Below, piece by piece: positions 2,463 through 20,400 of a DNA stretch of 64,000 nt. The notes beneath the pieces were generated by a model, which was not told the DNA's origin, did no database searches, and worked only from the letters and a program-made list of their open reading frames with translations. The DNA comes from a virus. Each line of letters opens with the position of its first letter. Position 1 is the stretch's first letter. The stretch is from the IMG/VR virus record IMGVR_UViG_3300029267_002158, positions 1 through 64,000 of that record, one strand, 5' to 3'. The position numbers and the translations under genes are program-made.

Positions 2463-2605
2463 TTGAGTTCTCCTATTCAATTCTTAAGGTACTTGGTGTA
2501 CGAAAATAGCGCTTGTGTCAGAATTTAGTTAAGCCTGTTTATTGTTTTCTTCTGTCTATCTGCCCTCCCTTGTTTTCTGGTCGAACGTTTTTTCAATCTG
2601 GTAAG

Positions 2606-4784: not shown

Positions 4785-5101
4785 GCTCCCCCCATTTTCT
4801 TTATTGCCATATGCGACACCCAAGGTGTCTTGGGGCTCACGATATTTGAGACATCTGACACAAACCCAACAACATCGCGCACGTTGAGTTCGATGACAAC
4901 GCGCTCACCCGCAGTGTCTATTACGCTTGTGTCGAAGTAGTGAGATGCAATGGCGGAAAGTGAGCCAAATTCACCAACGAGAGCTATCTCTTTTTCGCCG
5001 TCGTCGTAGCACACCTCGAAATACAGCAAGTGCTTGCCGAGACTATTAACCTTCCAACAGGATAGCTTCATGACCTGTCTTCTTTCTCGCCTTTTGCCCA
5101 T
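4781..5101 (-). CDS. Hypothetical protein
   Basis: ORF in tightly packed leftward operon; start uncertain. Confidence 0.55.
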   Translation of the reverse strand: MGKRRERRQVMKLSCWKVNSLGKHLLYFEVCYDDGEKEIALVGEFGSLSAIASHYFDTSVIDTAGERVVIELNVRDVVGFVSDVSNIVSPKTPWVSHMAIKKMGGA

Positions 5102-5259
5102 TTGTTCATCTGATTAATGTAATACATCGTCACCTCTCTCTCCGCTCTGATGGACGCGATGATGTATTGCCGAACAGTGTCTATGCCAGCACACTCGAAT
5201 AACCCAATCACCTCATCAGCAATCTCGGATGGCGTTTTCGTTAATGTGGGCGCTGCCAT
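5068..5259 (-). CDS. Hypothetical protein
   Basis: ORF with GAGGGAG SD. Confidence 0.6.
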   Translation of the reverse strand: MAAPTLTKTPSEIADEVIGLFECAGIDTVRQYIIASIRAEREVTMYYINQMNKWAKGEKEDRS

Positions 5260-5603
5260 ATTTCCTCCCTCTCATTTGTGATCACCGCCTTCTTTATGTC
5301 TCCCTGGAGCTTGTCGAGCGCATAGCTGCGCGATAAGATTTCTTGAACACATATCGTTTGCGTCACGCCACGCGGGCAACTGAACTTATCTGAATACACA
5401 CGGATGTTAACGTTGACTCCGTTCTCTAAGACAAACGATAAAGAGCTGACATCAGTCATCCAGAGTATATCACTTGCCATTACCATCAACTGCGCCTTGA
5501 TTTCTGCAAACTCCAAAAACCAGTTTGCCTTAATCCTGCCGATCTCGCTGACTACGTATTCCCCACCTGGGACTTTCTCGAAATTAATCTTTATTTTCAT
5601 CAC
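5241..5603 (-). CDS. Hypothetical protein; probable paralog of 4226..4537
   Basis: ORF, shared LW(L/M)TxVxSLSF motif. Confidence 0.65.
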   Translation of the reverse strand: MMKIKINFEKVPGGEYVVSEIGRIKANWFLEFAEIKAQLMVMASDILWMTDVSSLSFVLENGVNVNIRVYSDKFSCPRGVTQTICVQEILSRSYALDKLQGDIKKAVITNEREEIWQRPH

Positions 5604-5883
5604 GCGCCTCAGTATTTTTAAACACCACCTCTATGACAGGCGCGTCGAAGAAGTCAAGCTGTTCCAAGTCCCACTTGACACAATCTGAACACTTGACCTT
5701 AACAGAGCTCGCTTTCCCTTTCTTCATTCCAATCCTCCAGTACCAGCCTGATTGCATAATAGTCAAGATTTATAGGTGGGCAAATCGCGGAGCTAATTGG
5801 CAAACAGGCAAAAGTGATAATACATGCTGCCTCGATCAGCTCCGCGATTATACTTGTGGCCTCCTTGACGAATAAGATGTCCC

Positions 5884-6219
5884 TTACAGAAACAGTACTG
5901 TTTCTGCGTACACGCTGTAGTCAGCGTGTGGTTTCCCAGCATTGTCGTACCAGATATTTGGCGCGCCATCCTTGCCAGGGTCAAGACGGCCACTTACAAA
6001 TACCGCCCTGCCTTTCCTGCCCATCTCTTTGCAAATCTTAGCCAGGGACCCAACTGCCAAAACCCTGTACCATGTCACCTTCTCTACCTTCTCACCCTTT
6101 TTGTAGTAGGTGTGATTAGAAGCAGCGGAGAAGTCACAGTACGGCGTCCCATTTCTATCGTATGTCAACTTCGGATCTCTTCCTAGATTCCCCAGAAACC
6201 ACAATTGCCCAGCATGCAC
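5884..6219 (-). CDS. ssb: Single-stranded DNA-binding protein (OB fold, no acidic tail)
   Basis: LGNLGRDPKLTY..NGTP...F..A.N...TWYRV...KGRAVFVSGRL SSB signature. Confidence 0.9.
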   Translation of the reverse strand: MHAGQLWFLGNLGRDPKLTYDRNGTPYCDFSAASNHTYYKKGEKVEKVTWYRVLAVGSLAKICKEMGRKGRAVFVSGRLDPGKDGAPNIWYDNAGKPHADYSVYAETVLFL

Positions 6220-6223
6220 TTCG

Positions 6224-6496
6224 TTATCCTTTCAATAATAGTCTTTTCGCCAGGTCGTAATATCCCATTGCGCTCAATGCACCAGCAATGGAATACACAA
6301 CTAGTTCTACCCACAACACCACAGAGGGGTCAAGCAGCCCTTGCCCAATTGCTTGCGCCAACCCGACGAACGAAAAGCCCAAAACCAACGCCAGGACTTG
6401 ACTCCACTTGCCATTGAGACCAAAACTCTTTGCAGCCTCAACGATGCCGACAATGAGCAACGGGATACTTATAACACCAATTTGGATGTTATCCAT
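6224..6496 (-). CDS. Putative holin-like small membrane protein
   Basis: Three hydrophobic segments, LIVGIVEAAK...GALSAMGYYDLAK; AGGAGGTGA SD before ATG 6496. Confidence 0.6.
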   Translation of the reverse strand: MDNIQIGVISIPLLIVGIVEAAKSFGLNGKWSQVLALVLGFSFVGLAQAIGQGLLDPSVVLWVELVVYSIAGALSAMGYYDLAKRLLLKG

Positions 6497-6734
6497 GTTT
6501 ATCACCTCCTTTCTCATCTGAGAATGCTAGTACGCCAACAAAGAGACTGATAATTGCGGTAATGACGAACCAAAACCAGTCAACGTCGGCATTGATTGTT
6601 ACAAGCAAAAGCAAGAACAAGAACGTGAGCCATCCAAGCACCCCGACCACTTCTATCACAAGCTCAACTCTCCTTCCCCGTCTGATATTCTCAATACCTG
6701 ACGGGCAATCATGTGGCGCTTTGGCGGTCGCCAT
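6489..6734 (-). CDS. Small two-TM membrane protein (start uncertain)
   Basis: Two strongly hydrophobic helices. Confidence 0.55.
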   Translation of the reverse strand: MATAKAPHDCPSGIENIRRGRRVELVIEVVGVLGWLTFLFLLLLVTINADVDWFWFVITAIISLFVGVLAFSDEKGGDKHG

Positions 6735-6946
6735 GCTTTTACAACTTGTGACTTTGGGATTATAACATATCCCGAACGGTGAACAAGCTTCAGCGCCGCC
6801 TCAAGTGTCATTTCCTTCTCGATGTAATAAGTCAACATCGAGTTGCGATCCCATTCCTTGCCTGTATACCTTGCCCTTCCGTCGTTCCGTGACTCACGGT
6901 GTATCTGTCTGGCCGCAGCCTCTAAGATACTACCTACGTTTTCCAT
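6656..6946 (-). CDS. Hypothetical protein
   Basis: GGAGG SD before ATG 6946 (MENVGS...). Confidence 0.5.
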   Translation of the reverse strand: MENVGSILEAAARQIHRESRNDGRARYTGKEWDRNSMLTYYIEKEMTLEAALKLVHRSGYVIIPKSQVVKAWRPPKRHMIARQVLRISDGEGELSL

Positions 6947-7097
6947 AGGACCTCCAGTGTTTGTGAGATTTCTTTTCGTTCCTAGCAAAAGCCAGCCCAT
7001 CCCTGATTGCCTTTAGTTTTTTAGAGCGTCGCACGATCCGCATGAAGCGCCCTCGCCCAATTCTCCCCTGTGAGTATTCTAAGTAATGACTCTTCAT
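6930..7097 (-). CDS. Small basic hypothetical protein
   Basis: GAGGAG SD, ATG at 7097 (MKSHYLEY...). Confidence 0.45.
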   Translation of the reverse strand: MKSHYLEYSQGRIGRGRFMRIVRRSKKLKAIRDGLAFARNEKKSHKHWRSYGKRR

Positions 7098-7306
7098 AAC
7101 AGCTCCTCCTCTTGCTTCGTGGTAACAAACTCTATCCACCCCGTGGCCCGCATGGTTTTAGCGCCTACTGACAAGTTGTGACTGACTACAGTTGCGCTTG
7201 TCAGCCCGCGCCCGTCCAGAATACTCTTCGGTGAAACACTCGATGTGTACGGAACGTCGAATAATATTCTGTGCCTTTTCGCAAATAAAACTCGCAAGAT
7301 ATTCAT
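7094..7306 (-). CDS. Hypothetical protein
   Basis: AAGGAGGT SD, ATG at 7306 (MNILRVLF...). Confidence 0.55.
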   Translation of the reverse strand: MNILRVLFAKRHRILFDVPYTSSVSPKSILDGRGLTSATVVSHNLSVGAKTMRATGWIEFVTTKQEEELL

Positions 7307-7752
7307 TTCAACCTCCTTATCCATGTTTTTGTAGTGTCGGCTAGGCAATGCAGTGCGTCTGCCATCGCCAACCCTACAAACACCCTTGGGATTGCCCACC
7401 AGGGAAATTCTATGCGCGCCATCCATGCAAATCCAACCAGGCACAATATTGGAAGACCGAGAACAACCGTGAATCTAATTACTGTAGATATGAACGGCGT
7501 GTGTGAAACCTTGTGCCTATGCGGGATTGCATCTTTGTAAACCTCAGTGAACCCTACGTAATCGAGAATAGGGTTCATTAAACCCCTTGGATCAACTAAG
7601 TCCAGATCTGGACTAACAGTTAAACCAATCAGTGCGCCAATTGGAATAGTTGCGTCACGCCAATCACCAGTGATAAACGGCGTGACGCAAAGCATTAACG
7701 CCATTCCCAAGGTTTGATTCCTGTGTCCAAACCTACCTCTATAGCTAGGCAT
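7303..7752 (-). CDS. DUF2227-like metal-binding membrane protein
   Basis: MPS...H, SPDLDL, IPHRxxxSHTP, DALHxxAD motifs with TM helices. Confidence 0.75.
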   Translation of the reverse strand: MPSYRGRFGHRNQTLGMALMLCVTPFITGDWRDATIPIGALIGLTVSPDLDLVDPRGLMNPILDYVGFTEVYKDAIPHRHKVSHTPFISTVIRFTVVLGLPILCLVGFAWMARIEFPWWAIPRVFVGLAMADALHCLADTTKTWIRRLK

Positions 7753-8422
7753 TTTTGGACTCCAAGATGATAATGCCTTGTCCATTCCTGGACTCGATCT
7801 TCCCAACTGACTCCAACTCTCTCAAGTAATTGTAAATGGTGTTTGAAGATACACCCAAGTACTTTGAAATATCTCCTACAGGGATTAAAGGATCTTGTGC
7901 AATCATCTCCAACATACCCCCAATCCTTTCCTCCTTTGTCTCAAACCTTTGGGTGTCTTGGGAAACTACTTTCAAGTCGGTTTCACCGTCTTGTAAAAAC
8001 GTGAATAGGTCTGTGCCAATAATTTCACTCAGTGCGAAAACGATGAGAGAGATTAACGCAGTCGAGACACCGCCTATTACAGCTTGTAGCCAGTCTATTT
8101 CACGTATTGTCACAGACGTTAAACCCTTTTGGTAAAAGGTTGTGAAACCTTCACTCGCATTGGCAATTGCAGAGACAAAGACAACCGCAATCAGGACAAA
8201 GTAGAAAAACGCTCTCTTTTGATCTTCGCCCTCCCGGCCAATCCTTAACGAAAGACTCACAACCGTTAACTCGATCCCAAACGCGCATACGTAGCCCACA
8301 ACGAAAGGTTCAACATATCGTGACAAGAGACCCCCGGTATGCACAAACGTGTAAATCAACAGCGGGACGAGCGACATCAGGCCCAAGACCGCACCAACCA
8401 CCTTCTCATTCTTCATCGCCAT
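7745..8422 (-). CDS. Four-TM membrane protein with C-terminal HTH (SpdA/DUF2637-like architecture)
   Basis: TM helices incl. VSAIAN; C-terminal ISKYLGVSSNTIYNYLRELESVGKI. Confidence 0.65.
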   Translation of the reverse strand: MAMKNEKVVGAVLGLMSLVPLLIYTFVHTGGLLSRYVEPFVVGYVCAFGIELTVVSLSLRIGREGEDQKRAFFYFVLIAVVFVSAIANASEGFTTFYQKGLTSVTIREIDWLQAVIGGVSTALISLIVFALSEIIGTDLFTFLQDGETDLKVVSQDTQRFETKEERIGGMLEMIAQDPLIPVGDISKYLGVSSNTIYNYLRELESVGKIESRNGQGIIILESKNA

Positions 8423-8627
8423 TCACTTTCACACTCATCGAAAATGGCCTGCCAACAGGCTTGTTGGCGGTAGCGCAGCGACTATGCACCCATTTTCCCC
8501 CGCTCGTTGTCCTCATGCTCTCGTCACGATAAATCACATTTTTGCAAATAACGCAACGCCTCTGGTAGCAAACAGGACATCTCCCATCAAATTCCTTCCA
8601 GCTATTGCAGTACACACACTTATTCAT
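8406..8627 (-). CDS. Small Cys-rich Zn-binding protein
   Basis: CVYC, CPVC, CVIC, HSRC. Confidence 0.6.
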   Translation of the reverse strand: MNKCVYCNSWKEFDGRCPVCYQRRCVICKNVIYRDESMRTTSGGKWVHSRCATANKPVGRPFSMSVKVNGDEE

Positions 8628-8757
8628 TTCTACCCCCGTCCTATGCTATGAATGCAATTCTGTGAATTGGATACCAAATGCCATTGATTTCATCATAGAA
8701 TCCCTGCTCGTTGATTTGAATATACCTTGAAATTGTAAATTCCGTCCCATTTTTCGC

Positions 8758-10068
8758 TCATTGCCATTTGCCTTCCCCTATGTACCTTTCTATCATTGAA
8801 ACCCCTGTCCAAAAATCTACCTTTAATTTGTAGTGCTGCCCCCTTCCATGCGGCGCTTCTAGCACGCCGGCTTCAACCAAGTGCTTTTTGCCATCTTTGA
8901 TAAACACCTGACCCATTCCAGGATGCTGTTTGTACGTGGCGTGGATACCGGAGGTGTTGTCTCCAACCCGACCACCAATTGCCCATATCTTCCACAACCT
9001 CATTCTAGGGTCGCTGTCCAGCTTGCTCTCTATCTTTCTGCTGAGCACGAGATCGACCTCGCTGCTACTAACCCTCAACGTCTTTCCCCTGTAACGCTTC
9101 GCCCCGTCCTCCATGACAAATTCTCCAGGGCGCTTTGGCAAATCCCCAATGTCAGAACCAATGATCACCTTGCCCTGCTGTGCAGTCGCAACTGCTAGAC
9201 ATATTTTCCTCATCAGCATGTAAGTGATTGACTTGTCGAGGATGTCGTACCTCGGATATTGTGTCGCTATCAACAGAAAGATGCCGGCACTTCTTGACTT
9301 GCGAGCCAGTATTGACAGCAAACGAACGCCACTCTTTTCCTGTGTGATGTCTGCAATCTCGTCAATGATGACAAAAATCGGTTTGGTAACAGGCCGCCTC
9401 TGCCTGACCCGCATTTTCTCCACGAGGCTGCTCAGTAACTCAAGGGCCTCTCTTTCCTCGTCAACATATGAGCAGATAGCTCCCCATCTGTACAACCCGT
9501 CTTCTACATTGCCCTTTAGATCTATAATGTAGATCTCTGAGTTGGAATCAGTTGAGAAGAGCTGAATGAGTATCGAGTTGATTAGGTTTGTCTTACCTCC
9601 GCCAGTTGAGCCGCCAACCAATGTGTGCGCCTCTGAAAAATCGGCTTTAATTGGGTTATCGAGATTGTCGTAGCCAATTATTGCTGATAAGTCAGGGCGC
9701 AGTATCTTTGGATGAACCCTCGCCAGCTCAATGCTCTTCTTTGCAACCGGACTTCGCTGCGGTATGTCCTTCTGTATGTTCCTCATCTTTCTTGGCAGTG
9801 AAATTTTCTTCCTTGTAAAAAGGATAGCGTTATTTACGGTCACTGCCACAAGGGCAATCACTACAGCGATAAGGTGCTGAATGCTTTTCTTAAATAGCGC
9901 CCTGAATGCAATCCATGCCATTAACGCCAAGCCAACCATGTATAGAGATGTGTTCGCCCACGACGATGCTATGTTGTTCCTCAGAATGGCTCCGGCGATA
10001 ATGTACGCCGGAGCCATTGCACTCGCTACGTAACCAATGTAGGTCATTTCACTGTCTCCAGGAGCCAC
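8758..10068 (-). CDS. FtsK/SpoIIIE-family DNA translocase with N-terminal TM segments
   Basis: HTLVGGSTGGGKT (Walker A), IIDLKG, VIIDEIAD (Walker B), RKSRSAGIFLLIATQYP. Confidence 0.9.
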   Translation of the reverse strand: MAPGDSEMTYIGYVASAMAPAYIIAGAILRNNIASSWANTSLYMVGLALMAWIAFRALFKKSIQHLIAVVIALVAVTVNNAILFTRKKISLPRKMRNIQKDIPQRSPVAKKSIELARVHPKILRPDLSAIIGYDNLDNPIKADFSEAHTLVGGSTGGGKTNLINSILIQLFSTDSNSEIYIIDLKGNVEDGLYRWGAICSYVDEEREALELLSSLVEKMRVRQRRPVTKPIFVIIDEIADITQEKSGVRLLSILARKSRSAGIFLLIATQYPRYDILDKSITYMLMRKICLAVATAQQGKVIIGSDIGDLPKRPGEFVMEDGAKRYRGKTLRVSSSEVDLVLSRKIESKLDSDPRMRLWKIWAIGGRVGDNTSGIHATYKQHPGMGQVFIKDGKKHLVEAGVLEAPHGRGQHYKLKVDFWTGVSMIERYIGEGKWQ

Positions 10069-10658
10069 TTTCTAGTTACCGTCTTGGCGACATCTTCGTC
10101 AACTATATCTCTGTCCACCCAAGAAGCAACAGCCCCCTGGACAAACTGCTTACCCGTAGCGTCGTCAGGAACCTCAGGAGCTTTGACCTGAACCTTATTT
10201 ATTGCTACTAACAGCTCTTTCGGAACAAGCCTGCCCTCGATATAGCTATGAGTAGCGGTCCGGATCTGGACTCGCGCAAACCCAAGCCGCCGGCCAAGCC
10301 ACGTCGAGGTGTCCTCAAGACCAGCATTGATGTGTCCTATCTGATCACGGGTCGTCTTGATTACGAACAGCCCGTGACGCTTGAAGAAAACACCATTCCC
10401 ATTCGTGTCCCGACACACAGCAAACCATTCGTGATTCCACTTTATCAGCTCGATGATTACGTGTGCGAGCGGATACATATTTAGGAGCAACAGTGCTATC
10501 AGGCGAGGGTAGGAGAATTTGTCGATAAGCGCAAAAGTAGTTACTGTGATTATCGTCCCCCACCAGATACCGTCACTTACCTCAGGCAGTATTTCATACC
10601 AGTGGCGACGGGTGGCGTATACAGTTTTGTATCCCAGTGGCGACGGGAATCTTTTCAT
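10044..10658 (-). CDS. Membrane protein with bacterial PH (bPH_2/DUF304-like) domain
   Basis: TRRHW, two TMs, KRHGLF...LGRRLGFARVQIRTA. Confidence 0.65.
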   Translation of the reverse strand: MKRFPSPLGYKTVYATRRHWYEILPEVSDGIWWGTIITVTTFALIDKFSYPRLIALLLLNMYPLAHVIIELIKWNHEWFAVCRDTNGNGVFFKRHGLFVIKTTRDQIGHINAGLEDTSTWLGRRLGFARVQIRTATHSYIEGRLVPKELLVAINKVQVKAPEVPDDATGKQFVQGAVASWVDRDIVDEDVAKTVTRKWLLETVK

Positions 10659-10674
10659 GCTTGCTTTGCCTTTT

Positions 10675-10998
10675 CTAAAACGCCGTTAAATAAAAAAGCA
10701 CATCACTGCTCAAAGTCATCGGTGATAACCATGTTGCGCCGGGTATCAAAATCTTCCCGGCGTCGTTCAACCTTATCAGCCCTTCTTGCTCCAAAATCCT
10801 GATGTGGTACTGAACGGTCGATAAGCTGCTGACACCTATAATTCCTGCCAGCACCCGGCGTGGTGGCGAATTTCCATCATTCATTTTCTTGTACCTGATG
10901 ATTTCCGCCAGCACCCTTTGCGTCTTTTCTCCGATGCCTCGACTACCTGTCTTTTGGCACGTGCCATTTGACACCAATTGGCCTTTTTGAAAGTCCAT
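10675..10998 (-). CDS. LexA-type DNA-binding wHTH protein lacking the peptidase domain
   Basis: QRVLAEII.Y.....GNSPPRRVLAGIIGVSSLSTVQYHIRILEQEGLI matches the LexA N-domain pattern. Confidence 0.75.
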   Translation of the reverse strand: MDFQKGQLVSNGTCQKTGSRGIGEKTQRVLAEIIRYKKMNDGNSPPRRVLAGIIGVSSLSTVQYHIRILEQEGLIRLNDAGKILIPGATWLSPMTLSSDVLFYLTAF

Positions 10999-11278
10999 GA
11001 TACCCCCTAGCTAATTTTGTTATCATACCAACCCTCCATAAATTGGTCAAATTACTGATGAGAGAACTTGGGCCAAATTTGTTCCTCTTGAAGCTACTTC
11101 TCTTTATCAGCTCCGTAAGCTCGTCAATGGTGTACGGCCTGTCCTCAGTGACGGCGCGCAGCCACTCAAACATTAACTGCGAGCGTCTGGTTAACTGAAA
11201 GTTTGGTAAAGTGTCGTAATAATCCTCTGGGTAAACGACGAAGAGATCTACATCTTCGTCATCTCTAGTTTCTTCCAT
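10943..11278 (-). CDS. Hypothetical, possible wHTH protein
   Basis: YTIDELTEL...SLISNLTNLWRVGMITKLARG.Y. Confidence 0.55.
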   Translation of the reverse strand: MEETRDDEDVDLFVVYPEDYYDTLPNFQLTRRSQLMFEWLRAVTEDRPYTIDELTELIKRSSFKRNKFGPSSLISNLTNLWRVGMITKLARGYHGLSKRPIGVKWHVPKDR

Positions 11279-11754
11279 ATCGCCCTCGTTGCTAGCGCCA
11301 CTCCGATAGCATCAGCAGCGTGCTCTCCAGGACATCCAGGTGCAAGCCGCAGCGCCCATTCAAACATTGTGATTTTTCCAGCCATTCTATCATTAGTCAG
11401 AGCAACCTTCGCCTGTGCTGGAGCAACCTCTACGACCTGCAATCCCTCATCCCATACAGCGGAGTAGATTATACCGCACACTTTTGCTAACTTGATCGCC
11501 GTCTGTGGATTCCTGCCTGACCACGGCATTTCTATCCCGACCAAAACCTCATCATCAAGCGCCCTGGTGCGGGCTGCAAAATCCCTCGCCCAAATACCGA
11601 TTTTCTCCATACGATACAATAGACTCTCCGCAGCGCTTAACTTCTTTGGAATGCCTCTGGTAAAATCGACCTGGTTACAGGTGATGATTTCATGATCACT
11701 TAAGGCGGCGTACCCGATGTGAAATGTACCTGTGTCAATGCCTGCAAAAATCAT
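11248..11754 (-). CDS. ruvC: RuvC-family Holliday junction resolvase
   Basis: AGIDTG...GYA, VGIE, P.QAKVALT, HAADAIGVAL catalytic motifs. Confidence 0.9.
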   Translation of the reverse strand: MIFAGIDTGTFHIGYAALSDHEIITCNQVDFTRGIPKKLSAAESLLYRMEKIGIWARDFAARTRALDDEVLVGIEMPWSGRNPQTAIKLAKVCGIIYSAVWDEGLQVVEVAPAQAKVALTNDRMAGKITMFEWALRLAPGCPGEHAADAIGVALATRAIWKKLEMTKM

Positions 11755-11759
11755 CTCGC

Positions 11760-11963
11760 CTACTTTTCGTATGCAGGCAAGCTAGCAACGGAGTTTACCG
11801 AAAGGTGGTAGCGTTTGTAATTCTCCGCGATCTTTTCCCGATACTCAGATGCGGAAACAGTCTTTATCTTTGCGTCCTCTGCGTTCCATGCGATGATGCT
11901 TCGATGAACCTCGATCACTTCAGGACCATCCAAATCCACAACGTATACATTGTAAATGTACAT
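11760..11963 (-). CDS. Hypothetical protein
   Basis: GAGGAGG SD before ATG 11963 (MYIYNVYVVDL...). Confidence 0.55.
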   Translation of the reverse strand: MYIYNVYVVDLDGPEVIEVHRSIIAWNAEDAKIKTVSASEYREKIAENYKRYHLSVNSVASLPAYEK

Positions 11964-12182
11964 GCAGACCTCCTCTTTTTTCTTTTTCACTTCTTCAGTC
12001 GTGTTGCTATAATAGCTGCAACTTGAAAAGTCATAAAATTTTCTGTCGCTATATGCCTTAAGACGAAGCAATTTACTATCCTCCAACGTTTCAGATATTA
12101 AGGCTTTGCCGCGATGCCTCCTTTCAGAATCTTCTATGCAAACTAATGATCAGTAGAAAATACTTTCTGTGCTCATGCTAGT

Positions 12183-12211
12183 ATTATACATCAGTCGAAC
12201 GTTCTTGTCAA
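12183..12211 (-). promoter_or_regulatory. Consensus sigma70-type promoter (leftward operon)
   Basis: TTGACA-17 nt-TATAAT on the minus strand; spacer contains palindrome GAACGTTC. Confidence 0.9.
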
Positions 12212-12261
12212 TAGCAATTTTCCTTCCAACCTTAAAATTTTGTGCAAATTCGCATTTTTAC

Positions 12262-12290
12262 TTGACGCCATGCGCGATCTGTGGTAGAAT
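12262..12290 (+). promoter_or_regulatory. Sigma70-type promoter for the non-coding region
   Basis: TTGACG-17 nt-TAGAAT with TGn extended -10. Confidence 0.75.
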
Positions 12291-12295
12291 ATTGT

Positions 12296-12700
12296 CACAT
12301 CAGACATCCGGGATAGCGGCCTGGAAGAAAAAGTAAGTGAAATACAATTGGCAATAATGCTGGGGTGAAAATGTTAAGGCGGGATTCTAAGAAAAAATGA
12401 TTGAAAAAACTTTTCCACAGCGAGCTCTGCACAAAAATCAAATTCGTCGTAGTATTCAATTGCGCCCATTACGACGAGCCGTATCAGGATCATTTTTTCT
12501 GCTTTTTCCGCTTTCTGCGTTTTTGCCTAACATTGCTGCTGTGCGGATTGTATTTCACGTAGTGCTTCTGTCCGATGTGCGTCGCGTAGCGCGTATCCTG
12601 CCAGCTAGCAGTGATGCTATGCGACACGCAGGGCTCGCGGTGGAAGAGTTTTTTCAATCTGGAAGCCCGTCCTTGCTTTCTTCGCAAGGGCGGGTTTTTT
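12296..12700 (+). ncRNA. Putative ~400-nt highly structured ncRNA, family unrecognised
   Basis: Own promoter and terminator; helices 12296-306/12569-79, 12337-48/12547-58, 12390-401/12489-500, 12444-53/12468-77, 12399-430/12628-59, 12581-90/12616-25. Confidence 0.65.
12665..12700 (+). terminator. Intrinsic terminator
   Basis: GCCCGTCCTTGC-tttcttc-GCAAGGGCGGGT then T-run. Confidence 0.85.
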
Positions 12701-12722
12701 GTTTTCCTGAGGTAACTTCATA

Positions 12723-13005
12723 GCACTAATGCCCAGCCTCGTCGCTGGCCTCAGAGCGACAGGCACTAGATGGCCCGAAGGGAAGTCGCCAATAAATACC
12801 GTTGCCATCTACCCGACCCCTCTTTGCGCGGGGCAAATGCAATACCAGGCGTTCCGAGAACCGCTGCTGATTCAAGTGGAAAGCGGTGGCGATGTGCAGA
12901 TATAATCGGGAAACCGAGTGGTTATATAGGAACCGGGGCCATGTTTGCGAAACTGCATGTGAGTAGGATAACCCCATGCTGTCAGCAAGTTGTCCTTACT
13001 AGTGG
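12723..13005 (+). ncRNA. Second candidate structured RNA/ssDNA element
   Basis: Serial hairpins, TCGG-GAAA-CCGA tetraloop, possible pseudoknot TCGCCA/TGGCGA; no credible ORF. Confidence 0.4.
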
Positions 13006-13054
13006 CGGATAAAGGTCTAAATTGACTTTGGCCTTATGGTATTTTTGCGCCTAT

Positions 13055-13083
13055 TTGACAAAACTATCAATGAATGTTATAAT
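13055..13083 (+). promoter_or_regulatory. Consensus sigma70-type promoter (rightward)
   Basis: TTGACA-17 nt-TATAAT, TGn, followed by AAGGAGGT SD and ATG 13101. Confidence 0.9.
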
Positions 13084-13100
13084 AATAGAAAGGAGGTTCT

Positions 13101-13334
13101 ATGGAAACTAAACGCAATTTACTGAAAGAAACCGTTGAGTTAGTGGCGGCATTGAAAGACGACAAAACACCGGTAGGCATTCCTTACCTCATTGAGGTGT
13201 TCAGGTTGCTGGCCGCCAGAATTGTTGTTTTTGAGATGTACTTGTTGCGGATGAGCATTGAGATAGACATCGGCAACGAGAAGGAGTTCAAAGAAGTAGC
13301 ACTTGAAATGTGCAGTAAAATGAAAGGGGTATGA
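13101..13334 (+). CDS. Hypothetical protein
   Basis: Strong SD, directly after promoter. Confidence 0.8.
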   Translation: METKRNLLKETVELVAALKDDKTPVGIPYLIEVFRLLAARIVVFEMYLLRMSIEIDIGNEKEFKEVALEMCSKMKGV

Positions 13335-13529
13335 ATGACATTGAATGCGGTAACTGACTTGAAAAAGGTAAAACCAGAATCGCGTGAAACTTGCGCGACG
13401 TGCAGATGGTTCAGAGACAAGCCTGGATACTTATCGGTGTGGTGTTTAAGACCTGGTGGCCCTGGCTGGTTAAAAAAGGAGAAGGAGGAGTTTCAACACG
13501 TGTGCAGTAATTACAGGAGGAGGAAATGA
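13335..13529 (+). CDS. Small Cys-rich protein
   Basis: CATCRWF...WC...VC; SD AAGGGG. Confidence 0.7.
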   Translation: MTLNAVTDLKKVKPESRETCATCRWFRDKPGYLSVWCLRPGGPGWLKKEKEEFQHVCSNYRRRK

Positions 13530-13924
13530 TTGCAGAAGTGACTGTCAAGGCGGGGCTCAATACCCTTAACGGATTTACAGTTAAGGGAAATTTCTCAAAG
13601 ATGGTGTCAATGAACGAGCACATGAGTTCTCAAATAATCTGGCGCGCCGGCTCTGCGCCGGCAACAGTCTTTGTTGGCGGGCTGACCATAAAGGCAAATA
13701 GCGTCATCTTTTTTCGTGACGTCACAAGCAAGAAAGGGCAAATAATTGTTGATGCAAAAAGTACAAGGGGGCACTTTAACCATAGTGAGAATGTGATGTA
13801 CAAGGTGTCCTTTCCTGGATCTAGGATATGGATTGAAGGGGAAGCTGAGCCTACTATCCAGACGACATCTGGAACTGATGCGATTGTTACGTGCAGAACG
13901 GCGAATCTGGGAGGCGCGCTTTGA
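13526..13924 (+). CDS. Hypothetical protein
   Basis: AGGAGG SD, ATGA overlap. Confidence 0.7.
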   Translation: MIAEVTVKAGLNTLNGFTVKGNFSKMVSMNEHMSSQIIWRAGSAPATVFVGGLTIKANSVIFFRDVTSKKGQIIVDAKSTRGHFNHSENVMYKVSFPGSRIWIEGEAEPTIQTTSGTDAIVTCRTANLGGAL

Positions 13925-14400
13925 AAGTATACATAGCAGGCCCGTACACCGGTGATTCTGAACAAGAGACACTTGAGAATGTAGAGTTAGCAATTTTCAT
14001 TGCAGAAAGACTTCTCTTGTTAGGGCACCAACCATTCATCCCCCACCTGTACCATTACTGGCACGAAGTCTATCATCATTCTTATAGGCAATGGATGCAG
14101 TTGCGCCTTTCGTGGCTGAAAGAATGCGACGCAATGGTTTGCCCTCCAGGGGATTCACGCGAGGTCGATGAAGAGATCCAATTCGCAAAGAAGAATGACA
14201 TCAATATCATACGGGATATGAAATTTGCACTAGATCTAGATGTTGACGCCAAGACATTTGAGGAGTCCAGGCCGACGGAGTCCAGTTCTGGACAAGCCGC
14301 AGTGAATGACTTTCTTGATTTCCTCGACAAGTACCGTCACGGGTATTTTACACCGCTATTTTACGAAGAGGTTGAAAAGCTAAGGAGTTCAGTATGCTGA
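13921..14400 (+). CDS. Nucleoside deoxyribosyltransferase-like (DUF1937/DUF4406-type) protein
   Basis: KVYIAGPYT...PFIPHL...WLKECDA...PG.S...EI.FA; TTG start with GGAGG SD. Confidence 0.7.
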   Translation: MKVYIAGPYTGDSEQETLENVELAIFIAERLLLLGHQPFIPHLYHYWHEVYHHSYRQWMQLRLSWLKECDAMVCPPGDSREVDEEIQFAKKNDINIIRDMKFALDLDVDAKTFEESRPTESSSGQAAVNDFLDFLDKYRHGYFTPLFYEEVEKLRSSVC

Positions 14401-14786
14401 AGAGCTTAATCCTAATCGGAGCCGCGACATTCTACATTGGTTCATCAAGCGCGCCGTTGTATTGCGACCAATTTTTCCCCAAAGAAACGCTGACCTATGG
14501 CTCTGTGGAAGAGCCGTGGATTGCGTTAGATGTTGGCATGTATGAGGAAGGCAGCGTGCTTCCAGGAGACGAGATTCTTGTCTCGTTCAACGACAGTGGC
14601 AAGCAGGAGGTGTTCAAGGCCCTTGATGCCGGCCTGTTGTCCGGAAACAAGGTGGACCTCGATATGGATGGCAAGAGGGACACGCCAATAGTTATAGACA
14701 TCCCAGAAAGATTCAAACCAGATGAAAATATGAGCTGGGGTGTTGTAGTCGTCAACCTCTCAGCCTTGAAGAGGATGTTTGAGTGA
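14394..14786 (+). CDS. Exported protein with possible 3D/double-psi-barrel cell-wall enzyme domain
   Basis: Hydrophobic N-terminus; three spaced Asp motifs IALD...ALDAG...IDI. Confidence 0.45.
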   Translation: MLKSLILIGAATFYIGSSSAPLYCDQFFPKETLTYGSVEEPWIALDVGMYEEGSVLPGDEILVSFNDSGKQEVFKALDAGLLSGNKVDLDMDGKRDTPIVIDIPERFKPDENMSWGVVVVNLSALKRMFE

Positions 14787-15184
14787 AAAGAGTAGACCCA
14801 ACACCATTCAAAAAAGAAGGGTTAATGATGCCGGATATGAAGGTTGATTTCCACGAGTGGCGCATGGGGCTAAAGCGCCACTTGATGAGAAGGGACAAGG
14901 TGTGCAGGTCGTGCGGCGGGCCGTTCGGCAACGGTATACATATGCACGAGGGGATATTCTCTCGCGTACAAGTTGTTGGCTGGCCCAGGAAATGGAGAGT
15001 GCTCATTCACTGCGAGCTAAATTGCGTTCTCCTGCACCCAAATTGCAATCTTGGGCGGCATGGAATGTCTCCTCCGCCCAGGGAGCAAGTATGGAATGAG
15101 CACTGTGAGATGTACGGCAGTGATGTCATGATGTCGTGGGTATCGTCTTTGCCGTTCAAGTATTTTCCAGCATGGATACGATAG
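14783..15184 (+). CDS. HNH-like Zn-binding nuclease upstream of terminase
   Basis: RDKVCRSCG...HMHE...NCVLLHPNCN. Confidence 0.6.
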   Translation: MKRVDPTPFKKEGLMMPDMKVDFHEWRMGLKRHLMRRDKVCRSCGGPFGNGIHMHEGIFSRVQVVGWPRKWRVLIHCELNCVLLHPNCNLGRHGMSPPPREQVWNEHCEMYGSDVMMSWVSSLPFKYFPAWIR

Positions 15185-15224
15185 AATGAATGTTGGAGCA
15201 AAGAGTTTGCATTGTGCGCGAGCG

Positions 15225-15254
15225 TTGACAATTTGCTAATAATTGTGATATAAT
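15225..15254 (+). promoter_or_regulatory. Sigma70-type promoter for packaging genes
   Basis: TTGACA-18 nt-TATAAT with TGn; ATG 7 nt downstream. Confidence 0.8.
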
Positions 15255-15260
15255 TTGTTC

Positions 15261-15803
15261 ATGAGCAAGCTGTCAGAACAATGCAAGAAAACTTACGTCG
15301 AATTTTGCGCCAGAGAGAACCGCCTGGTACCCCTAGTGACTTTTGTCGATGCGAGCCTAAACCTAATTGGTCGGCAGCTCGAATACGACAGAGTCAAGCA
15401 CTGGTCTCTTGAAGAGGGGTGGAAAGATGCGGCCTCCCTGGCGCTTCATGGTTCTGAGGAACGCAAGGAGATCCGTTACATTTTGAACCTGGCGTTCTCG
15501 TCAGCCATGAACGCTGATGACGCAAAGGAGCTGATACAGTACGGCAAAGCGTACCAATACACCCTAGATGAGCTTGTAGATTCAGAGCTTGTTGATGAAA
15601 TAGAAAGAATGGAGGGTCTGCGTAGGCACATCAAGTCATTCATAATGGCTAGCGGGAGTGAAATGGGAGGGAATAACCTGGCCGGACTGACAAGGCTCAG
15701 CGCCATATTGCACAAGCGGTTGATGCCGCTTATTACTATGGAGGGTGAGGGCACCGTTGATCCGGACGCCTTCATTTTAGGCATTGAAGAGACGTATAAC
15801 TAA
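15261..15803 (+). CDS. Putative terminase small subunit
   Basis: Position directly before TerL; helical ~180 aa; VKHWSLEEGW HTH-like motif. Confidence 0.6.
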   Translation: MSKLSEQCKKTYVEFCARENRLVPLVTFVDASLNLIGRQLEYDRVKHWSLEEGWKDAASLALHGSEERKEIRYILNLAFSSAMNADDAKELIQYGKAYQYTLDELVDSELVDEIERMEGLRRHIKSFIMASGSEMGGNNLAGLTRLSAILHKRLMPLITMEGEGTVDPDAFILGIEETYN

Positions 15804-17430
15804 GAGTCAGCTAGAAGAACTTAAAAGGTGCAAGGCTGATGTGGTCTATATGGTCAAGAAATATGGATGGCTTCAGCATACGTCACGCGGAGAGATACGC
15901 TGGGAGCCATACGACTACCAGATTGAGATGCTAGAGTCTCTTCAGAATGGCGACAATATCATAACCCTTAAATCGAGGCAGATAGGTTGCTCATGGACAA
16001 CCGCAGCATACTTAATCTGGCTCATTATTTTCAACCCATCCATAAACTGCATTGTTCTTTCACAGAAAGAGCTTTATGCGGTCAAATTCTTGGAAAAGGC
16101 AAAATTCTTTTTCAATCGCCTTCCAAGATTCTTAAAGCCTAACGTTGTCTCTGATTCAAAGACGCAATTTACCGTGCAGTTTAGAGCAAAAAGACCAGAT
16201 GGCGATTACAAGATCGCCAATTCATCTGTTGATTCACTTACCACAACAACAGATACGGGTCGTAGTTTTTCTGCGCGGCTGGTCATTATGGACGAAGCCG
16301 CGTTTTTGCCAAATGGCGAAGACACGTGGAAGGCCGTTAAGCCAACAACGACACACGGCGGCCAGATAGCTGTAATCTCGACACCGAACCGTATAAACTG
16401 GTTTCATACACTGTGGGCAAAGGCCGAGGCTGGAGAATCACTTACCTTTAAGCCCATCATCGCCTATTACAGAGATTGCGGCTTTGACGACGAATGGTTG
16501 GCAAAAGTCACTGATGGAATGTCAGTGACAGACATTCTCCAGGAATACGAATTGCAGTTCCTGACAAGTGGCAATCCATTCTTTGATCTGAACAAACTCG
16601 CCCTTTGCTACTACGATACTGACGAGTTGGGTAAGATTGTTGACGCAGATGGCAAAAGCCTTAATGTCAAGACGTATATCAACTTCACGGGCGTGGACCC
16701 GTCAGAGGGGGCAGGAGACTATCATTCAATTGTATCTCTTAACCAGCACGGGGTGCAATTAGACGCTTGGCATTCTAAAGATACAAGCCTTGAAGATTTC
16801 TCCGGCTACACAATGACACTGCCTGATGGCAGTCGTGTGGAAGTGGAGGGAAGGACCTCTAAATGGCACAGGATGTATCCTGGATATATGGTCATCGAGC
16901 AAAATAACTCCGGTCAGACGGTGTACTCTCGTCATATAACGCCAGACGATGATAGAAGCATCACCATTTCCAGAAAAACAACCGGCGGCACAGCGGGGGC
17001 AGGTTCCAAGATGAGGATTTTAAACCTTCTGAAGTTGGCCGTTGCTGGAAGGCAGATCTACATCACCGACCTATTCACATACCGGTGTATGCAATCATTC
17101 GAGAGCAAACAAGGCGGTCAAAAGGCCGAGGCTGCTGACGGGGCGTATGACGATCCGGTTATGGCGCTTGCTCATTCGTATGCGGAGCTATATAAGTATG
17201 GCGGCTACGTCATAGAGATGCCAGAGAGGACAGTTGGCGGGCAGAGAATGGTGGCTTTGCGGAAAGAGGACGATTTATCCATAGATGAGCTAGCATCAGC
17301 GATACACGTTGATGGTGGCGTCATAGATGGACCTATATTAGATGAAAGCCCAGGTGGTAGGAGATTTGTTGATGAGCGAGATAGGCGTTTGCGCCCGCCC
17401 AGGGTGTCAGAACGAATTGAAAACTGGTAG
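15784..17430 (+). CDS. terL: Terminase large subunit
   Basis: PYDYQ, LKSRQIGCS (Walker A), VIMDEAAF (Walker B), ISTP, GVDP...GDY, DDPVMAL nuclease motifs. Confidence 0.95.
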   Translation: MKRRITKSQLEELKRCKADVVYMVKKYGWLQHTSRGEIRWEPYDYQIEMLESLQNGDNIITLKSRQIGCSWTTAAYLIWLIIFNPSINCIVLSQKELYAVKFLEKAKFFFNRLPRFLKPNVVSDSKTQFTVQFRAKRPDGDYKIANSSVDSLTTTTDTGRSFSARLVIMDEAAFLPNGEDTWKAVKPTTTHGGQIAVISTPNRINWFHTLWAKAEAGESLTFKPIIAYYRDCGFDDEWLAKVTDGMSVTDILQEYELQFLTSGNPFFDLNKLALCYYDTDELGKIVDADGKSLNVKTYINFTGVDPSEGAGDYHSIVSLNQHGVQLDAWHSKDTSLEDFSGYTMTLPDGSRVEVEGRTSKWHRMYPGYMVIEQNNSGQTVYSRHITPDDDRSITISRKTTGGTAGAGSKMRILNLLKLAVAGRQIYITDLFTYRCMQSFESKQGGQKAEAADGAYDDPVMALAHSYAELYKYGGYVIEMPERTVGGQRMVALRKEDDLSIDELASAIHVDGGVIDGPILDESPGGRRFVDERDRRLRPPRVSERIENW

Positions 17431-20400
17431 CACATATTGTTCCAGAAAATGCGCGGCTGCTGACAGGGCAAGGGTTAAGTCTTTGCGCCAGAAGTTGTCG
17501 CGTGACGCGATGAAGCTTATACCTGGAGATATTACGACTACAATGGTTGACGCCTTGGGAAACGGAGCTTACCGTGTATTGGAGGAATGGGCTACAACTC
17601 TTGCCGAGAGCAAGGAATTAGCACCTCCGTTGTTGTCATACACGAGTGAGTCAGGCGATTACTCTAATCGTTACGGCTCCATTCAAACAGATCACGCTTT
17701 GTACAGGGCGACGGATCAGTTAGGGTATGACACGATAGATGATATGATGCGTAACGGTCAGGTTGCATTTGGCGTAGAGATGAAACGCTCTTGGTTGCTG
17801 AGCGTGTTCAGGAACTCGCGTTCTTGGGACATAGAGTGCCAAGACGAGGATACAAAGAACATTGTGCGCGCCATGATGAAGCGTGTACTCACCCGCCATG
17901 CCGGAGAGTTTATGGAAGCCATTCCATACGGCAGTTACTTTGGCGAGAAAATATGGGACTTCAAGGAGGCCAGCTATTGGGGAATAGATGGTGTCCAGGA
18001 TGATGAAAAATATTACGGACTAAAATCGATAGAGGCCATTCACCCAAGGTCCATAAACCGCATTGTGTTTGATGATTCCGGACATCACTTTGACGGCTTC
18101 GTGCAGAACCAGGCGTTCGGTGAACAGAAGATTCCTGTTGCCCAGTCACTTATTTTGACGTACAACAAGCATTTCCGCAATTTGTGGGGTACACCAGCGC
18201 TAGATCCGGTGTATCCTTTTTGGTTTTGGTACGAGGTGTGCATGCGCTCCTTCGTGCGATATATGGAGCGCATGGGCACGCCAGTGACAGTGTGTCGCGC
18301 CCCGTCGAGAGGCCAGATTCGCGTCCCTGATGGAGCGCTGATGAAGTCCATGAAGTACGCTTTTCTCGTGGCGGGCAATGTCGCAGAGTCAAATGCAGTT
18401 GCCTTGCCCAGTGATGTCGATCCTGACACTGGACAGAAGCTTTGGGAGCTTGAATACCTCGCTGACGACAAGCGCGGCACGCAGTTCAAGGACGCGCTAG
18501 AACTTCTTGGCACGCTTATTATCAGATCGTTAGTAATAAGCGACAGAGCTATTACCCAGGGCCCAACAGGGAGCTATGCTGCTGCGGCGAAACACTTCGC
18601 CGTGACAATGTTGCACAACGAACATGTTTTGACACAATTCATCAATCAGCTAAATTCATATGTCATACCACAGATTGTCGAGTACAACATCGGGGCGAAT
18701 GCTAAGCCGGCTACTCTTGTCACAGAAGGATTGGACCCGGAGGAGAAAGAGAGGTTATTCAAACTCCTCTCGACGATGGGCAATCAGGCCGGCCAGACCA
18801 CAATGAACTGGATAGACTGGAAGAAGATCTTTGCTGTAGAAAACATTCCAGTTCTTAACCAGGAAGACTACGACGCCCTCAAAGAGGAGAAACAGGCTGC
18901 CGCCGACGAAGCTATGGAGCGGCAACGGAAAACAGGTGGGCAGTTCCCAGAGAACGGAGAGGAAGAAGAGCCGGAAGAAAAGGACGAGTCAATTAGCGAG
19001 AAGGTAGAGCAATCTGCCGACTGGGCTCTAATGCACATCGCAAGCGGAGCTAGATTTCCGGTTGTGTTAACAGCCGAGGGGGCGAATGCTATTTTTGACA
19101 GGCTTGGAAAGAGAAAATTCCAACTCGCTAATCCGTATCATGATCCATTTGGCAGATTCACATCAAAGGCCGGCTCGTCTGTGGCTTCTGGCGCGCAAGC
19201 GATTGCCGATAACACATTCAGGGATCCAAATTGGGTTGCTGCCGCCGCTGTTGTTCATAGCGGCAAGGCCAGAGAGATCATGCGTAGCCCTGAAGAGAAG
19301 GCAAGGATAGAAAAGGAGACGAAGCTCGCCCTTGATGCAGTTCCAGAAGAATTGCGACGCAAGGATCTGCGTGTGAGGCACCACGCAGGCATAGGCACGT
19401 ATGTGAGCGAGGCGGCAAGCATAGAGTCGATGGGCAATACAAACCCGATGGTCGCAATGTCTGCGGGGTACGTAAAACGAACCGGGGATCGCACGATTCA
19501 TCTCTCACCATCGGTTGTGAGGGAGCTCTCCAGTGACAACGAGGTTCAACGCGCCTTTGCCCGCCACGCTATTATTCACGAATCGCTCCATGCTCGCAAG
19601 AGAGAATTTGGCGCAGAGCAAATATTGAAGCGCATCCCGATCGTATCTGGTGTTTATGGCAATCTCTCCACGCCGATTGAGGAGGGATTGACAGACCTAA
19701 TGGCAAGTCAGATTAGCGGCGTGGCTGGTGCGGGGCCATACTCCAAGTACCGTGACAGAATGGCAAAGATTGCTATGTCCGTCTCTGGTAACAACAAAGA
19801 GAGGGCTAATCAATGGATAAAAGATTCACACAAACGGGCAACAGGCCCGATGGATTTGACACGCCAGTTAAACATGGCGGGTTACAAGACAAACCTCGTA
19901 GAGACCATAAAATATCTTAGCGGAGGCAAGGGGTCTCTTGTAGATCAGATTGGTACCGCTAAGGGGTACGGAAACACGTTTACCCGCCCCACCAGGAAAT
20001 ACAAGGGGCAATGGGAAACAGACACAAACCTTAAAAGGTTGGCGACTGGTGCAGCCGAGGCGCTGTCAGCCTCGTATTATAGAAAGGGGATTGCAACTGG
20101 TATTGGCGAAGCGCTAAAGGAGGCGATGAAGACGTGGCGGGAGATGGAAGGTGTGGATTTGGAGTATGAGGAATTTGCCCCTGAGGAGTGGGACTGGGAT
20201 TTGTCTGTCATTGCCTCAGCAGCCGGCAGCGAGATGAGTGACATCATTGCCGATGTGCCAGACGAGTACAAAGACGCGATAGTTACATACTTTGGCCTCG
20301 GCTACGATTTCGTACCTCGTATGCTTGGCGATTTCCCGAAGCAACAAGAGAAGTTGCTTGAGGCGCATTACCTGTTCAACCCATACCATGATAAAGATGG

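What the first reader, a model, noticed from the sequence alone, without database searches (positions are those of the whole stretch)
12262..12700. ~400-nt promoter-to-terminator ncRNA with two crossing long-range folds at the genome's divergence point
Seen: promoter at 12262-90 and terminator at 12665-700 bracket a region with no SD-supported ORF. Fold A is a nested rod: 12296-306/12569-79, 12337-48/12547-58 (12/12 WC), 12370-80/12525-34, 12390-401/12489-500 (12/12), apical 12444-53/12468-77. Fold B is a 32-bp helix 12399-430/12628-59 (29 WC, 2 G-U, 1 mismatch) that crosses fold A. Two of its three deviations are G-U wobbles on the + strand, which favours RNA-level pairing. Inference: a co-transcriptional two-state switch, or an oligomerising RNA, located where temperate phages usually keep a repressor gene. 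I do not recognise the family.
Basis: partly seen in the sequence, partly recalled or inferred. Interest (0 to 1): 0.85.

Follow-up and report, generated by a model that had tools for sequence, protein, structure and literature searches.

The report
Orphan 400-nt structured phage RNA gene
An uncultured 74-kb marine phage carries, between its two divergent gene blocks, a promoter-to-terminator unit that most likely makes a ~405-nt non-coding RNA with two competing very stable folds. It matches no known RNA family, and with no relatives or expression data its function is only an inference.

Summary
All claimed helices are in the sequence. The 32-nt inverted repeat (29 WC, 2 G-U, 1 mismatch) is the longest in the 64-kb window. 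A sigma-70-type promoter with an extended -10 lies 6 nt before the base of the rod. The strongest intrinsic terminator of the first 20 kb starts 1 nt after the 3' arm.

As RNA, the + strand folds far better than shuffles (z -6.3; minus strand -3 to -4). The rod (fold A, -154.4 kcal/mol) and the structure closed by the 32-bp helix (fold B, -149.2) are nearly isoenergetic.

The 108-aa ORF looks like noise. Its codon usage is non-coding, it has no relatives, and its stop lies beyond the terminator.

No Rfam family matches and no homolog was found. The nearest phages (terminase 46-61% identical) lack the element or their contigs stop short of it. So there is no covariation test and no expression test.

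The phage has no integrase, so the "repressor slot of a temperate phage" framing is unsupported.

Best reading (about 0.4): a stand-alone regulatory RNA. Its exposed 3' segment can pair with its own apical loop, or with the 5' end of an early leftward transcript 10 kb away. That lead came from an earlier scan note (15-nt match, p about 0.03).

The parts
12183..12211 (-). Neighbouring perfect-consensus promoter of the leftward early operon. It lies back to back with the RNA's promoter, with the -35 boxes 50 bp apart.
   Evidence: TTGACA-17-TATAAT, 12/12.
12262..12290 (+). Promoter of the RNA, TTGACG-17-(TG)TAGAAT. The inferred start is near 12297.
   Evidence: 10/12 with an extended -10 TG. The rod's basal helix begins at 12296.
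12296..12579 (+). Fold A, a 284-nt interrupted rod. Core helices are 12337-49/12546-58, 12363-74/12517-28, 12376-84/12506-14 and 12390-401/12489-500. A side hairpin lies at 12307-25.
   Evidence: The rod alone gives -97.4 kcal/mol and z -6.31, with MFE close to the centroid. Pair probabilities are above 0.98.
12371..12400 (+). A 9-codon mini-ORF with a GGGGTGA SD-like site. Its TGA overlaps the ATG of the 108-aa frame. Both the SD-like site and the start are buried in the rod.
   Evidence: SD duplex -8.0 kcal/mol. There is no evidence that it is translated.
12399..12430 (+). 5' arm of fold B. It lies in the loosely paired apical domain of the rod (12402-12488). Its first 12 nt are GATTGAAAAAAC.
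   Evidence: The opening cost in the rod state is 4.1 kcal/mol.
12443..12478 (+). Apical hairpin: 11 bp with a 14-nt loop.
12570..12634 (+). Second-domain hairpin, with its core at 12581-90/12616-25.
12628..12659 (+). 3' arm of fold B. It is complementary to 12399-12430 and is mostly unpaired in the rod state.
   Evidence: Duplex -50.8 kcal/mol; opening cost 8.4 kcal/mol.
12661..12705 (+). Intrinsic terminator: 15-16 bp stem, 7-nt loop and a T-run.
   Evidence: It is the strongest terminator-like site in window 1-20000.
2587..2601 (-). Candidate trans target: the +1 region of the perfect-consensus leftward promoter at 2634-2606. The minus-strand transcript would begin about AGAUUGAAAAAAC, which is complementary to 12648-12662 of the RNA.
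   Evidence: 15/15 identity, BLAST E 0.023; 2 of 60 shuffles reach 15 nt; duplex -18.5 to -24.8 kcal/mol.

Best explanation
A stand-alone non-coding RNA gene of the phage, giving an RNA of about 405 nt. Host-type RNA polymerase starts near 12297 and stops at the intrinsic terminator near 12700.

As it is made, the first 284 nt zip up into a long interrupted rod whose base includes the 5' end. That makes a stable scaffold. A 32-nt segment just before the terminator stays single-stranded. This segment is the working part and has two possible partners:
- The rod's own apical loop (fold B). In cis this refolds the molecule; between two molecules it makes a dimer. Either way the segment is masked.
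- The first 12-14 nt of the early leftward transcript from the promoter at 2634, through its last 13-15 nt. The RNA would then act as an antisense regulator of that operon.

The apical loop thus carries an internal copy of the target (GATTGAAAAAAC) that can switch the regulator off.

Shown: the sequence anatomy, the fold statistics, the non-coding character and the complementarities. Inferred: that the RNA is made, that either pairing happens in the cell, and what the effect on the target is.
For: - The promoter sits 6 nt ahead of the rod's base, and the window's strongest terminator starts 1 nt after the 3' arm.
- The + strand RNA fold has z -6.3 with a well-defined ensemble. The minus strand has z -3 to -4.
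- Stepwise folding forms the rod as soon as its 3' strand appears.
- Folds A and B lie within 5 kcal/mol of each other.
- The arms open for 12.5 kcal/mol in total, against -45.9 for the duplex.
- The region is non-coding. The codon score of the 108-aa frame is -0.10, inside the spurious-ORF range, while neighbouring genes score 0.09-0.24. The frame ends at 12723, past the terminator. It has no Pfam or PHROG hit. It finds only itself among 1.84 billion representatives.
- GATTGAAAAAAC occurs three times in the window: both arms and the +1 region of one of only four 12/12 promoters found in the first 20 kb scanned.
- The 15-nt match is the longest between the RNA and the rest of the genome. Only 2 of 60 shuffles equal it.
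Against: - There is no transcript evidence and no homolog, so no covariation.
- The nearest complete relative (G001, terminase 46% identical, RuvC-like protein 35% by tblastn, 41%) has only about 130 bp between its divergent promoters and no rod. The element is therefore not core to the lineage.
- The G-U against A-C asymmetry is weak.
- The trans match is short and A/U-rich. Taken alone it is only p about 0.03. It could equally be a shared DNA site.
- The promoter is a 10/12 match, in an AT-rich region that holds several such matches.
Confidence: 0.4

Rival explanations
1. A hok-like type I toxin mRNA. This would be a very stable, translationally locked mRNA. Long-range folds bury the ribosome site, a 9-codon leader ORF is coupled to a downstream small ORF (53 codons, TTG at 12401), and an antisense RNA is made from the minus strand.
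For: The size is about 400 nt, the 5' end is paired, and there are two alternative long-range folds. The mini-ORF has an SD-like site, and its stop abuts or overlaps two starts. A weak minus-strand promoter lies at 12574-12547. The apical hairpin read on the minus strand is followed by a U-rich run (sequence).
Against: No ORF matches any Pfam family. The 53-aa product has no clean transmembrane helix. The language-model recognition score is low and gave no hit. The antisense promoter is a 9/12 match, at chance level. The 108-aa frame runs past the terminator.
Confidence: 0.12
2. A protein-sequestering or decoy RNA. The rod would be the functional part. It could mimic an open promoter as 6S or Ms1 RNA do, to hold host RNA polymerase. 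Or it could offer long double-stranded RNA to a host nuclease or sensor.
For: The element is a long interrupted rod with paired ends and a large asymmetric open region before a terminal hairpin. It sits in the phage's early control region.
Against: No 6S, Ms1 or other family appears even at E up to 10. The closing stem is about four times longer than in 6S RNA. This reading leaves the 32-nt tail-to-loop complementarity unexplained.
Confidence: 0.12
3. A DNA-level element. The 32-bp inverted repeats and nested palindromes would act as DNA: an invertible segment (inverton) of 197 bp, paired protein-binding sites, or part of a replication origin at the skew switch.
For: The repeat is sharply bounded, 32 bp at 91%, flanking 197 bp, which is typical inverton geometry. 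With DNA parameters fold B dominates. GC skew flips here. The 5' arm holds TTTTCCACA, which fits the relaxed DnaA-box consensus (sequence). A third motif copy lies at another promoter.
Against: The complete genome has no tyrosine or serine recombinase. An inverted segment would only aim a weak promoter at the terminator. The + strand RNA fold is clearly better than the minus strand. The promoter and terminator bracket the structure exactly. Iteron-like repeats lie elsewhere, at 2728-2850.
Confidence: 0.12
4. A leader or insulator transcript. This would be a short terminated RNA like lambda's PR'-tR' 6S transcript. It would be extended into the rightward structural genes only under antitermination, or it would exist only to absorb divergent transcription.
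For: It points toward the rightward terminase and structural block and ends at a strong terminator.
Against: A perfect-consensus promoter at 13055 already serves that block. The 350 nt between terminator and promoter show no structure (z about 0). A by-product would not need a rod with z -6.
Confidence: 0.08
5. Not functional. These would be decaying palindromic DNA left by template-switch or duplication events, lying by chance between promoter-like and terminator-like sequences.
For: It is a singleton with no relatives. It is absent from the nearest complete relative, G001, and no equivalent was seen in the L087 fragment. The wobble asymmetry is weak.
Against: Several things coincide: two of the four best inverted repeats in 64 kb, a promoter at the rod's base, and the strongest terminator abutting the 3' arm.
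Confidence: 0.08

Closest known systems
hok mRNA of the hok/sok type I toxin-antitoxin system (plasmid R1)
   Same: It is a promoter-to-terminator RNA of about 400 nt. Its 5' end is locked by long-range pairing. It has two alternative long-range folds, one using a 3'-proximal element, and an overlapping leader ORF (own knowledge of the Gerdes-laboratory work).
   Different: No recognisable toxin ORF and no convincing antisense gene. The helices here are far longer (32 bp). The 3' end is protected by a strong terminator hairpin rather than trimmed.
Phage immunity RNAs: P4 CI RNA (seqA/seqB/seqC) and P1/P7 c4 RNA
   Same: A phage control-region RNA in which one segment is complementary to repeated copies of a short sequence. 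These copies lie both within its own transcript and in a target transcript (own knowledge).
   Different: Those RNAs are 70-80 nt products processed from an operon leader in temperate elements. Here the RNA is a separate 405-nt unit in a phage without an integrase. The candidate target is the 5' end of an mRNA 10 kb away.
6S RNA and mycobacterial Ms1
   Same: A rod-like RNA with paired ends and an open internal region. Ms1 is about 300 nt.
   Different: No covariance-model match. There is no symmetric central bubble, and there is an extra 120-nt 3' domain.
ROOL, GOLLD and OLE, large bacterial and phage RNAs that self-assemble (bioRxiv 10.1101/2024.12.08.627333)
   Same: A large, phage-associated, protein-free candidate with built-in self-complementarity that could join molecules.
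   Different: No Rfam match. It is much smaller, rod-like rather than ornate, and would use a 32-bp duplex rather than short tertiary contacts. It is also a single sequence without covariation.
Invertible promoter switches (fimS, Clostridioides difficile cwpV and flgB, Bacteroides invertons)
   Same: Inverted repeats of tens of bp flank about 150-300 bp in a regulatory region.
   Different: No recombinase in the genome. The segment holds no credible promoter.

Membership tests
Any Rfam 15 family (4227 models, including 6S, Ms1, Y RNA, HEARO, ROOL, GOLLD, OLE, riboswitches and type I antitoxins) | Covariance-model score at or above the family's gathering threshold | tested here: not met
   no match in the whole window; at E up to 10 there were only three chance hits (13.7-14.9 bits against thresholds of 40-50). 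Two lie on the terminator hairpin; the third (IS1222 frameshift element) lies at 12866-12977, outside the RNA.
Type I toxin-antitoxin (hok/sok-like) | A small hydrophobic toxin ORF with a ribosome site, lying within the terminated transcript | tested here: inconclusive
   only a 9-codon and a 53-codon frame end inside the RNA; no family or look-alike for either.
Type I toxin-antitoxin (hok/sok-like) | An antisense RNA gene overlapping the toxin mRNA | tested here: inconclusive
   only a 9/12 minus-strand promoter at 12574-12547. A hairpin followed by a U-run is seen by eye. No expression data.
Inverton (phase-variable invertible segment) | A site-specific recombinase is available | tested here: not met
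   no Phage_integrase or Resolvase match in six frames of the complete 73.8-kb genome. A host enzyme cannot be excluded.
Inverton (phase-variable invertible segment) | Both orientations are present in the population | not testable with these tools
   Only assembled contigs of the runs could be laid, and these cannot show minor variants. Raw reads are needed.
Retron or defence reverse-transcriptase ncRNA | An adjacent reverse transcriptase gene | tested here: not met
   no RVT_1 match in the genome.
Riboswitch or attenuator (cis two-state switch) | An expression platform: the alternative folds include or exclude the terminator or the ribosome site of a downstream gene | tested here: not met
   the terminator hairpin forms in both folds. 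The next gene is 400 nt away, behind its own 12/12 promoter.
Protein-coding gene (108-aa ORF, 12397-12723) | Coding-type codon usage, homologs, and a stop codon inside the transcript | tested here: not met
   score -0.10, against a spurious-ORF mean of -0.065 and real genes at 0.09-0.24; only itself, plus one E 1.4e-4 hit to one short stretch of a 1693-aa protein; the stop lies at 12721-23, after the terminator.

The most novel reading that the evidence does not exclude
The RNA is a self-assembling molecule. In the rod state the 3' tail of one molecule anneals over 29-32 bp to the apical loop of another. This gives antiparallel homodimers or head-to-tail filaments of rods, a new, duplex-swapped way for a phage RNA to build a higher-order particle. 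The same tail also recognises the 5' end of an early mRNA.

Forming both folds within one molecule looks sterically impossible. The 48-nt linker would have to span roughly 330 angstroms (my own geometric estimate). The trans form is strongly favoured thermodynamically, by about -33 kcal/mol per joint.
Probability: 0.12. Interest if true: 0.8.

Novelty: new variant of a known kind. Interest (0 to 1): 0.45.

Why it matters
Phage control regions are normally explained by repressors and promoters. Here a lytic-looking, uncultured marine phage gives that position to a large, exceptionally stable RNA that can adopt two exclusive folds or pair with itself.

If the RNA is real and regulatory, it would be a self-masking antisense regulator: a regulator that carries a decoy of its own target. 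If it dimerises, it would be a new kind of RNA assembly.

It is also a compact, well-bounded test object. It has one promoter, one terminator and two 32-nt arms, so the two-state or dimer question can be settled with a few in vitro experiments.

The caveat is serious. This is one sequence from one phage population, with no conservation and no expression evidence.

Tried and rejected
**Homolog searches, all empty**
- blastn against 50,697 phage records and 72,556 plasmids.
- Exact and gapped arm patterns in IMG/VR.
- blastn and nhmmer against the roughly 100 loci of terminase relatives fetched up to then.
- Single-protein locus searches in IMG/VR with the RuvC-like protein and the terminase.
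- Earlier scan notes, by sequence and by relatives.

**Relatives**
- An alignment-based terminase search gave only distant or short relatives in viral, metagenome and genome collections.
- L004 and L085 (57-61% identity) stop before the region.
- L005/G001 and L087 (46%) have short divergent regions without a rod.
- L086 (51%) showed no comparable repeat or fold in the part held.
- Closer terminase relatives exist on long contigs (P0002, P0007, P0008, 54-58%).
- The adjacent gene 11760-12086 is an ORFan.
- Cultured phages reach only 26% terminase identity.

**Sequencing runs**
- No RNA holder is listed. Four DNA runs hold the stretch and may be the source samples.
- Their contigs are identical over 3 kb, with no joints and no variants. 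Contigs cannot show rare inversions or SNPs, so this says nothing about inversion or covariation.

**Other checks**
- No phage RNase III.
- The 53-aa frame has no look-alike in the protein atlas.
- RNAduplex scans of the whole RNA against promoter-proximal leaders were uninformative, because long sequences always score high.
- No covariance model was built. A single-sequence model of this length would exceed the calibration limit and would add little.
- A MITE reading was dropped. There is no target-site duplication at 12398/12660 and no other copy in the genome.

Full report
**What the window is.** The window is the first 64 kb of a complete 73,811-bp IMG/VR virus record whose ends repeat over 144 bp. 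Near-identical contigs occur in marine sediment and seawater metagenomes. Genes run leftward from about 12.1 kb and rightward from 13.1 kb, where the terminase and structural genes lie, and GC skew changes sign there. Left of the gap lie a RuvC-like resolvase, a small LexA-type winged-helix protein and an FtsK-like ATPase. The genome has no tyrosine or serine recombinase and no reverse transcriptase. Nothing therefore marks it as temperate.

**The observation.** The 32-nt inverted repeat 12399-12430/12628-12659 has 29 Watson-Crick pairs, 2 G-U pairs and 1 mismatch. It is the best inverted repeat in the 64-kb window, and the rod's 28-nt repeat is fourth. A promoter, TTGACG-17-TAGAAT with an extended -10 TG, ends at 12290, so the predicted start is near 12297. 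The rod's basal helix begins at 12296. The terminator at 12661-12699 is the strongest terminator-like site in the first 20 kb, and it starts one base after the 3' arm. The structural modules therefore fill the promoter-to-terminator interval exactly. I take that as the main argument that the unit works as an RNA.

**Fold statistics.**
- The + strand of 12290-12700 folds to -154.4 kcal/mol (z -6.27). The minus strand gives -122 (z -3.96).
- The rod alone (12296-12579) gives z -6.31 on + with an MFE almost equal to the centroid. On the minus strand z is -3.04.
- The strand difference comes from wobble pairs: 9-12 G-U on + against 5-7 positions that would be G-U on the minus strand. That bias is not significant by itself.

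**Two states.**
- Forcing fold B gives -149.2 kcal/mol, against -154.4 for the rod.
- In stepwise folding the rod forms as soon as its 3' strand is made. The minimum-energy structure switches to B when the RNA ends at 12680 and back to A once the terminator is complete.
- In the rod state, the 5' arm lies in a loosely paired 87-nt apical domain and the 3' arm is largely open. Opening both costs 12.5 kcal/mol, and the duplex yields -45.9.
- By my own geometric estimate, the full rod and the 32-bp helix cannot coexist in one molecule, because the 48-nt linker is too short. The realistic options are refolding, partial unzipping of the rod, or pairing between molecules.
- The terminator hairpin is untouched in both states, and no gene follows closely. 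So there is no riboswitch-like expression platform.

**Coding potential.**
- The 108-aa frame scores like spurious ORFs on the phage's own codon usage: -0.10, against neighbouring genes at 0.09-0.24.
- It has no Pfam or PHROG match.
- Among 1.84 billion representatives it finds only itself and one marginal hit (E 1.4e-4) to a short stretch of a much longer protein.
- It ends at 12723, after the terminator.
- A 9-codon frame at 12371-12400 does have a fair Shine-Dalgarno-like site. Its stop overlaps or abuts two starts. That keeps a hok-like reading alive at low odds.
- The 350 nt between the terminator and the next promoter are non-coding and show no excess structure.

**Known families and relatives.** No Rfam family matches at gathering thresholds or at E up to 10. 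No homologous DNA was found in phage, plasmid or IMG/VR collections. None was found in the roughly 100 loci around terminase relatives fetched up to then. The lineage is isolated: cultured phages reach 26% terminase identity, and the flanking gene is an ORFan. The only complete relative (G001) has about 130 bp between its divergent promoters. A fragment (L087) has about 455 bp, with a 17-bp perfect repeat containing GAAC-N4-GTTC over both -35 boxes. Neither has a rod. So there is no covariation test, and the element is at best lineage-specific.

**A candidate target.** An earlier scan note pointed out that 12648-12662 is identical to 2587-2601. I confirmed this.
- It is the longest match between the RNA and the rest of the genome (15/15, E 0.023).
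- It is reached by 2 of 60 shuffles.
- By duplex energy it sits at about the 4th percentile of random 162-nt stretches.
- It covers the +1 region of one of only four 12/12 promoters seen in the first 20 kb. The minus-strand transcript would therefore start about AGAUUGAAAAAAC and could pair with the RNA's exposed 3' segment (-18.5 to -24.8 kcal/mol).
- The same 12-mer opens the 5' arm, so the RNA carries an internal copy of this target.

The position makes the coincidence notable. But it was found post hoc, and a shared DNA site would explain it equally well.

**Verdict.** The structure and the transcription-unit signals are real and far beyond chance. That it is a non-coding RNA gene I rate at about 0.7. 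The specific mechanism, a rod scaffold plus a self-maskable antisense tail, I rate at about 0.4. Rivals are:
- a hok-like locked mRNA;
- a protein-sequestering rod;
- a DNA-level repeat (inverton, origin or binding sites);
- a leader or insulator transcript;
- non-functional palindromic debris.

The most novel reading the evidence leaves open is an RNA that dimerises or polymerises through a 32-bp tail-to-loop swap. It belongs to no described family, so it is new. As a singleton without expression or conservation evidence, it earns moderate interest.

Noticed in passing
window 2606-2634 (-), 12183-12211 (-), 13055-13083 (+), 15225-15254 (+): Four perfect 12/12 sigma-70 consensus promoters lie in the first 20 kb. 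The two leftward ones share CTATTGACAAGAA around the -35 box and the 10-mer AACGTTCGAC (in the spacer at 12211, at about +10 to +20 at 2634). That suggests a common operator.
   Followed up: partly
window 2728-2850: GACTACACGAAACGAGAC occurs three times in direct repeat, beside the palindrome TGGCGCGCGCCA. This lies in a 600-bp non-coding gap upstream of the 2634 promoter. It looks like iterons and is a better origin or packaging-site candidate than the RNA locus.
   Followed up: no
window 12701-13054: 350 nt of non-coding DNA lie between the RNA's terminator and the next promoter. Its fold energy is no better than shuffles on either strand (z 0.12 and -0.31).
   Followed up: yes
L112:1598-2107 (-), that is genome 64598-65107: The phage encodes an RNase H (PHROG 531, E 8.7e-58). 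A DNA methyltransferase lies at window 56667-57479.
   Followed up: no
window 14901-15200: A 300-nt stretch inside the 133-aa gene, just upstream of the 15225 promoter, folds much better on + (-109 kcal/mol) than on - (-79). It is the only other outlier in the 9-16 kb scan.
   Followed up: no
L087:4380-4396 and 4836-4852: In a 46%-terminase relative, a perfect 17-bp inverted repeat containing GAAC-N4-GTTC (a LexA or Cheo-type box) overlaps the -35 of both divergent promoters.
   Followed up: no
window 259-325, 1204-1254, 38142-38215: Long hairpin-type inverted repeats (21-31 nt arms, 5-32 nt loops) occur elsewhere in the genome. They are likely operon-end terminators; the one at 259-325 has T- and A-runs on both sides.
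   Followed up: no
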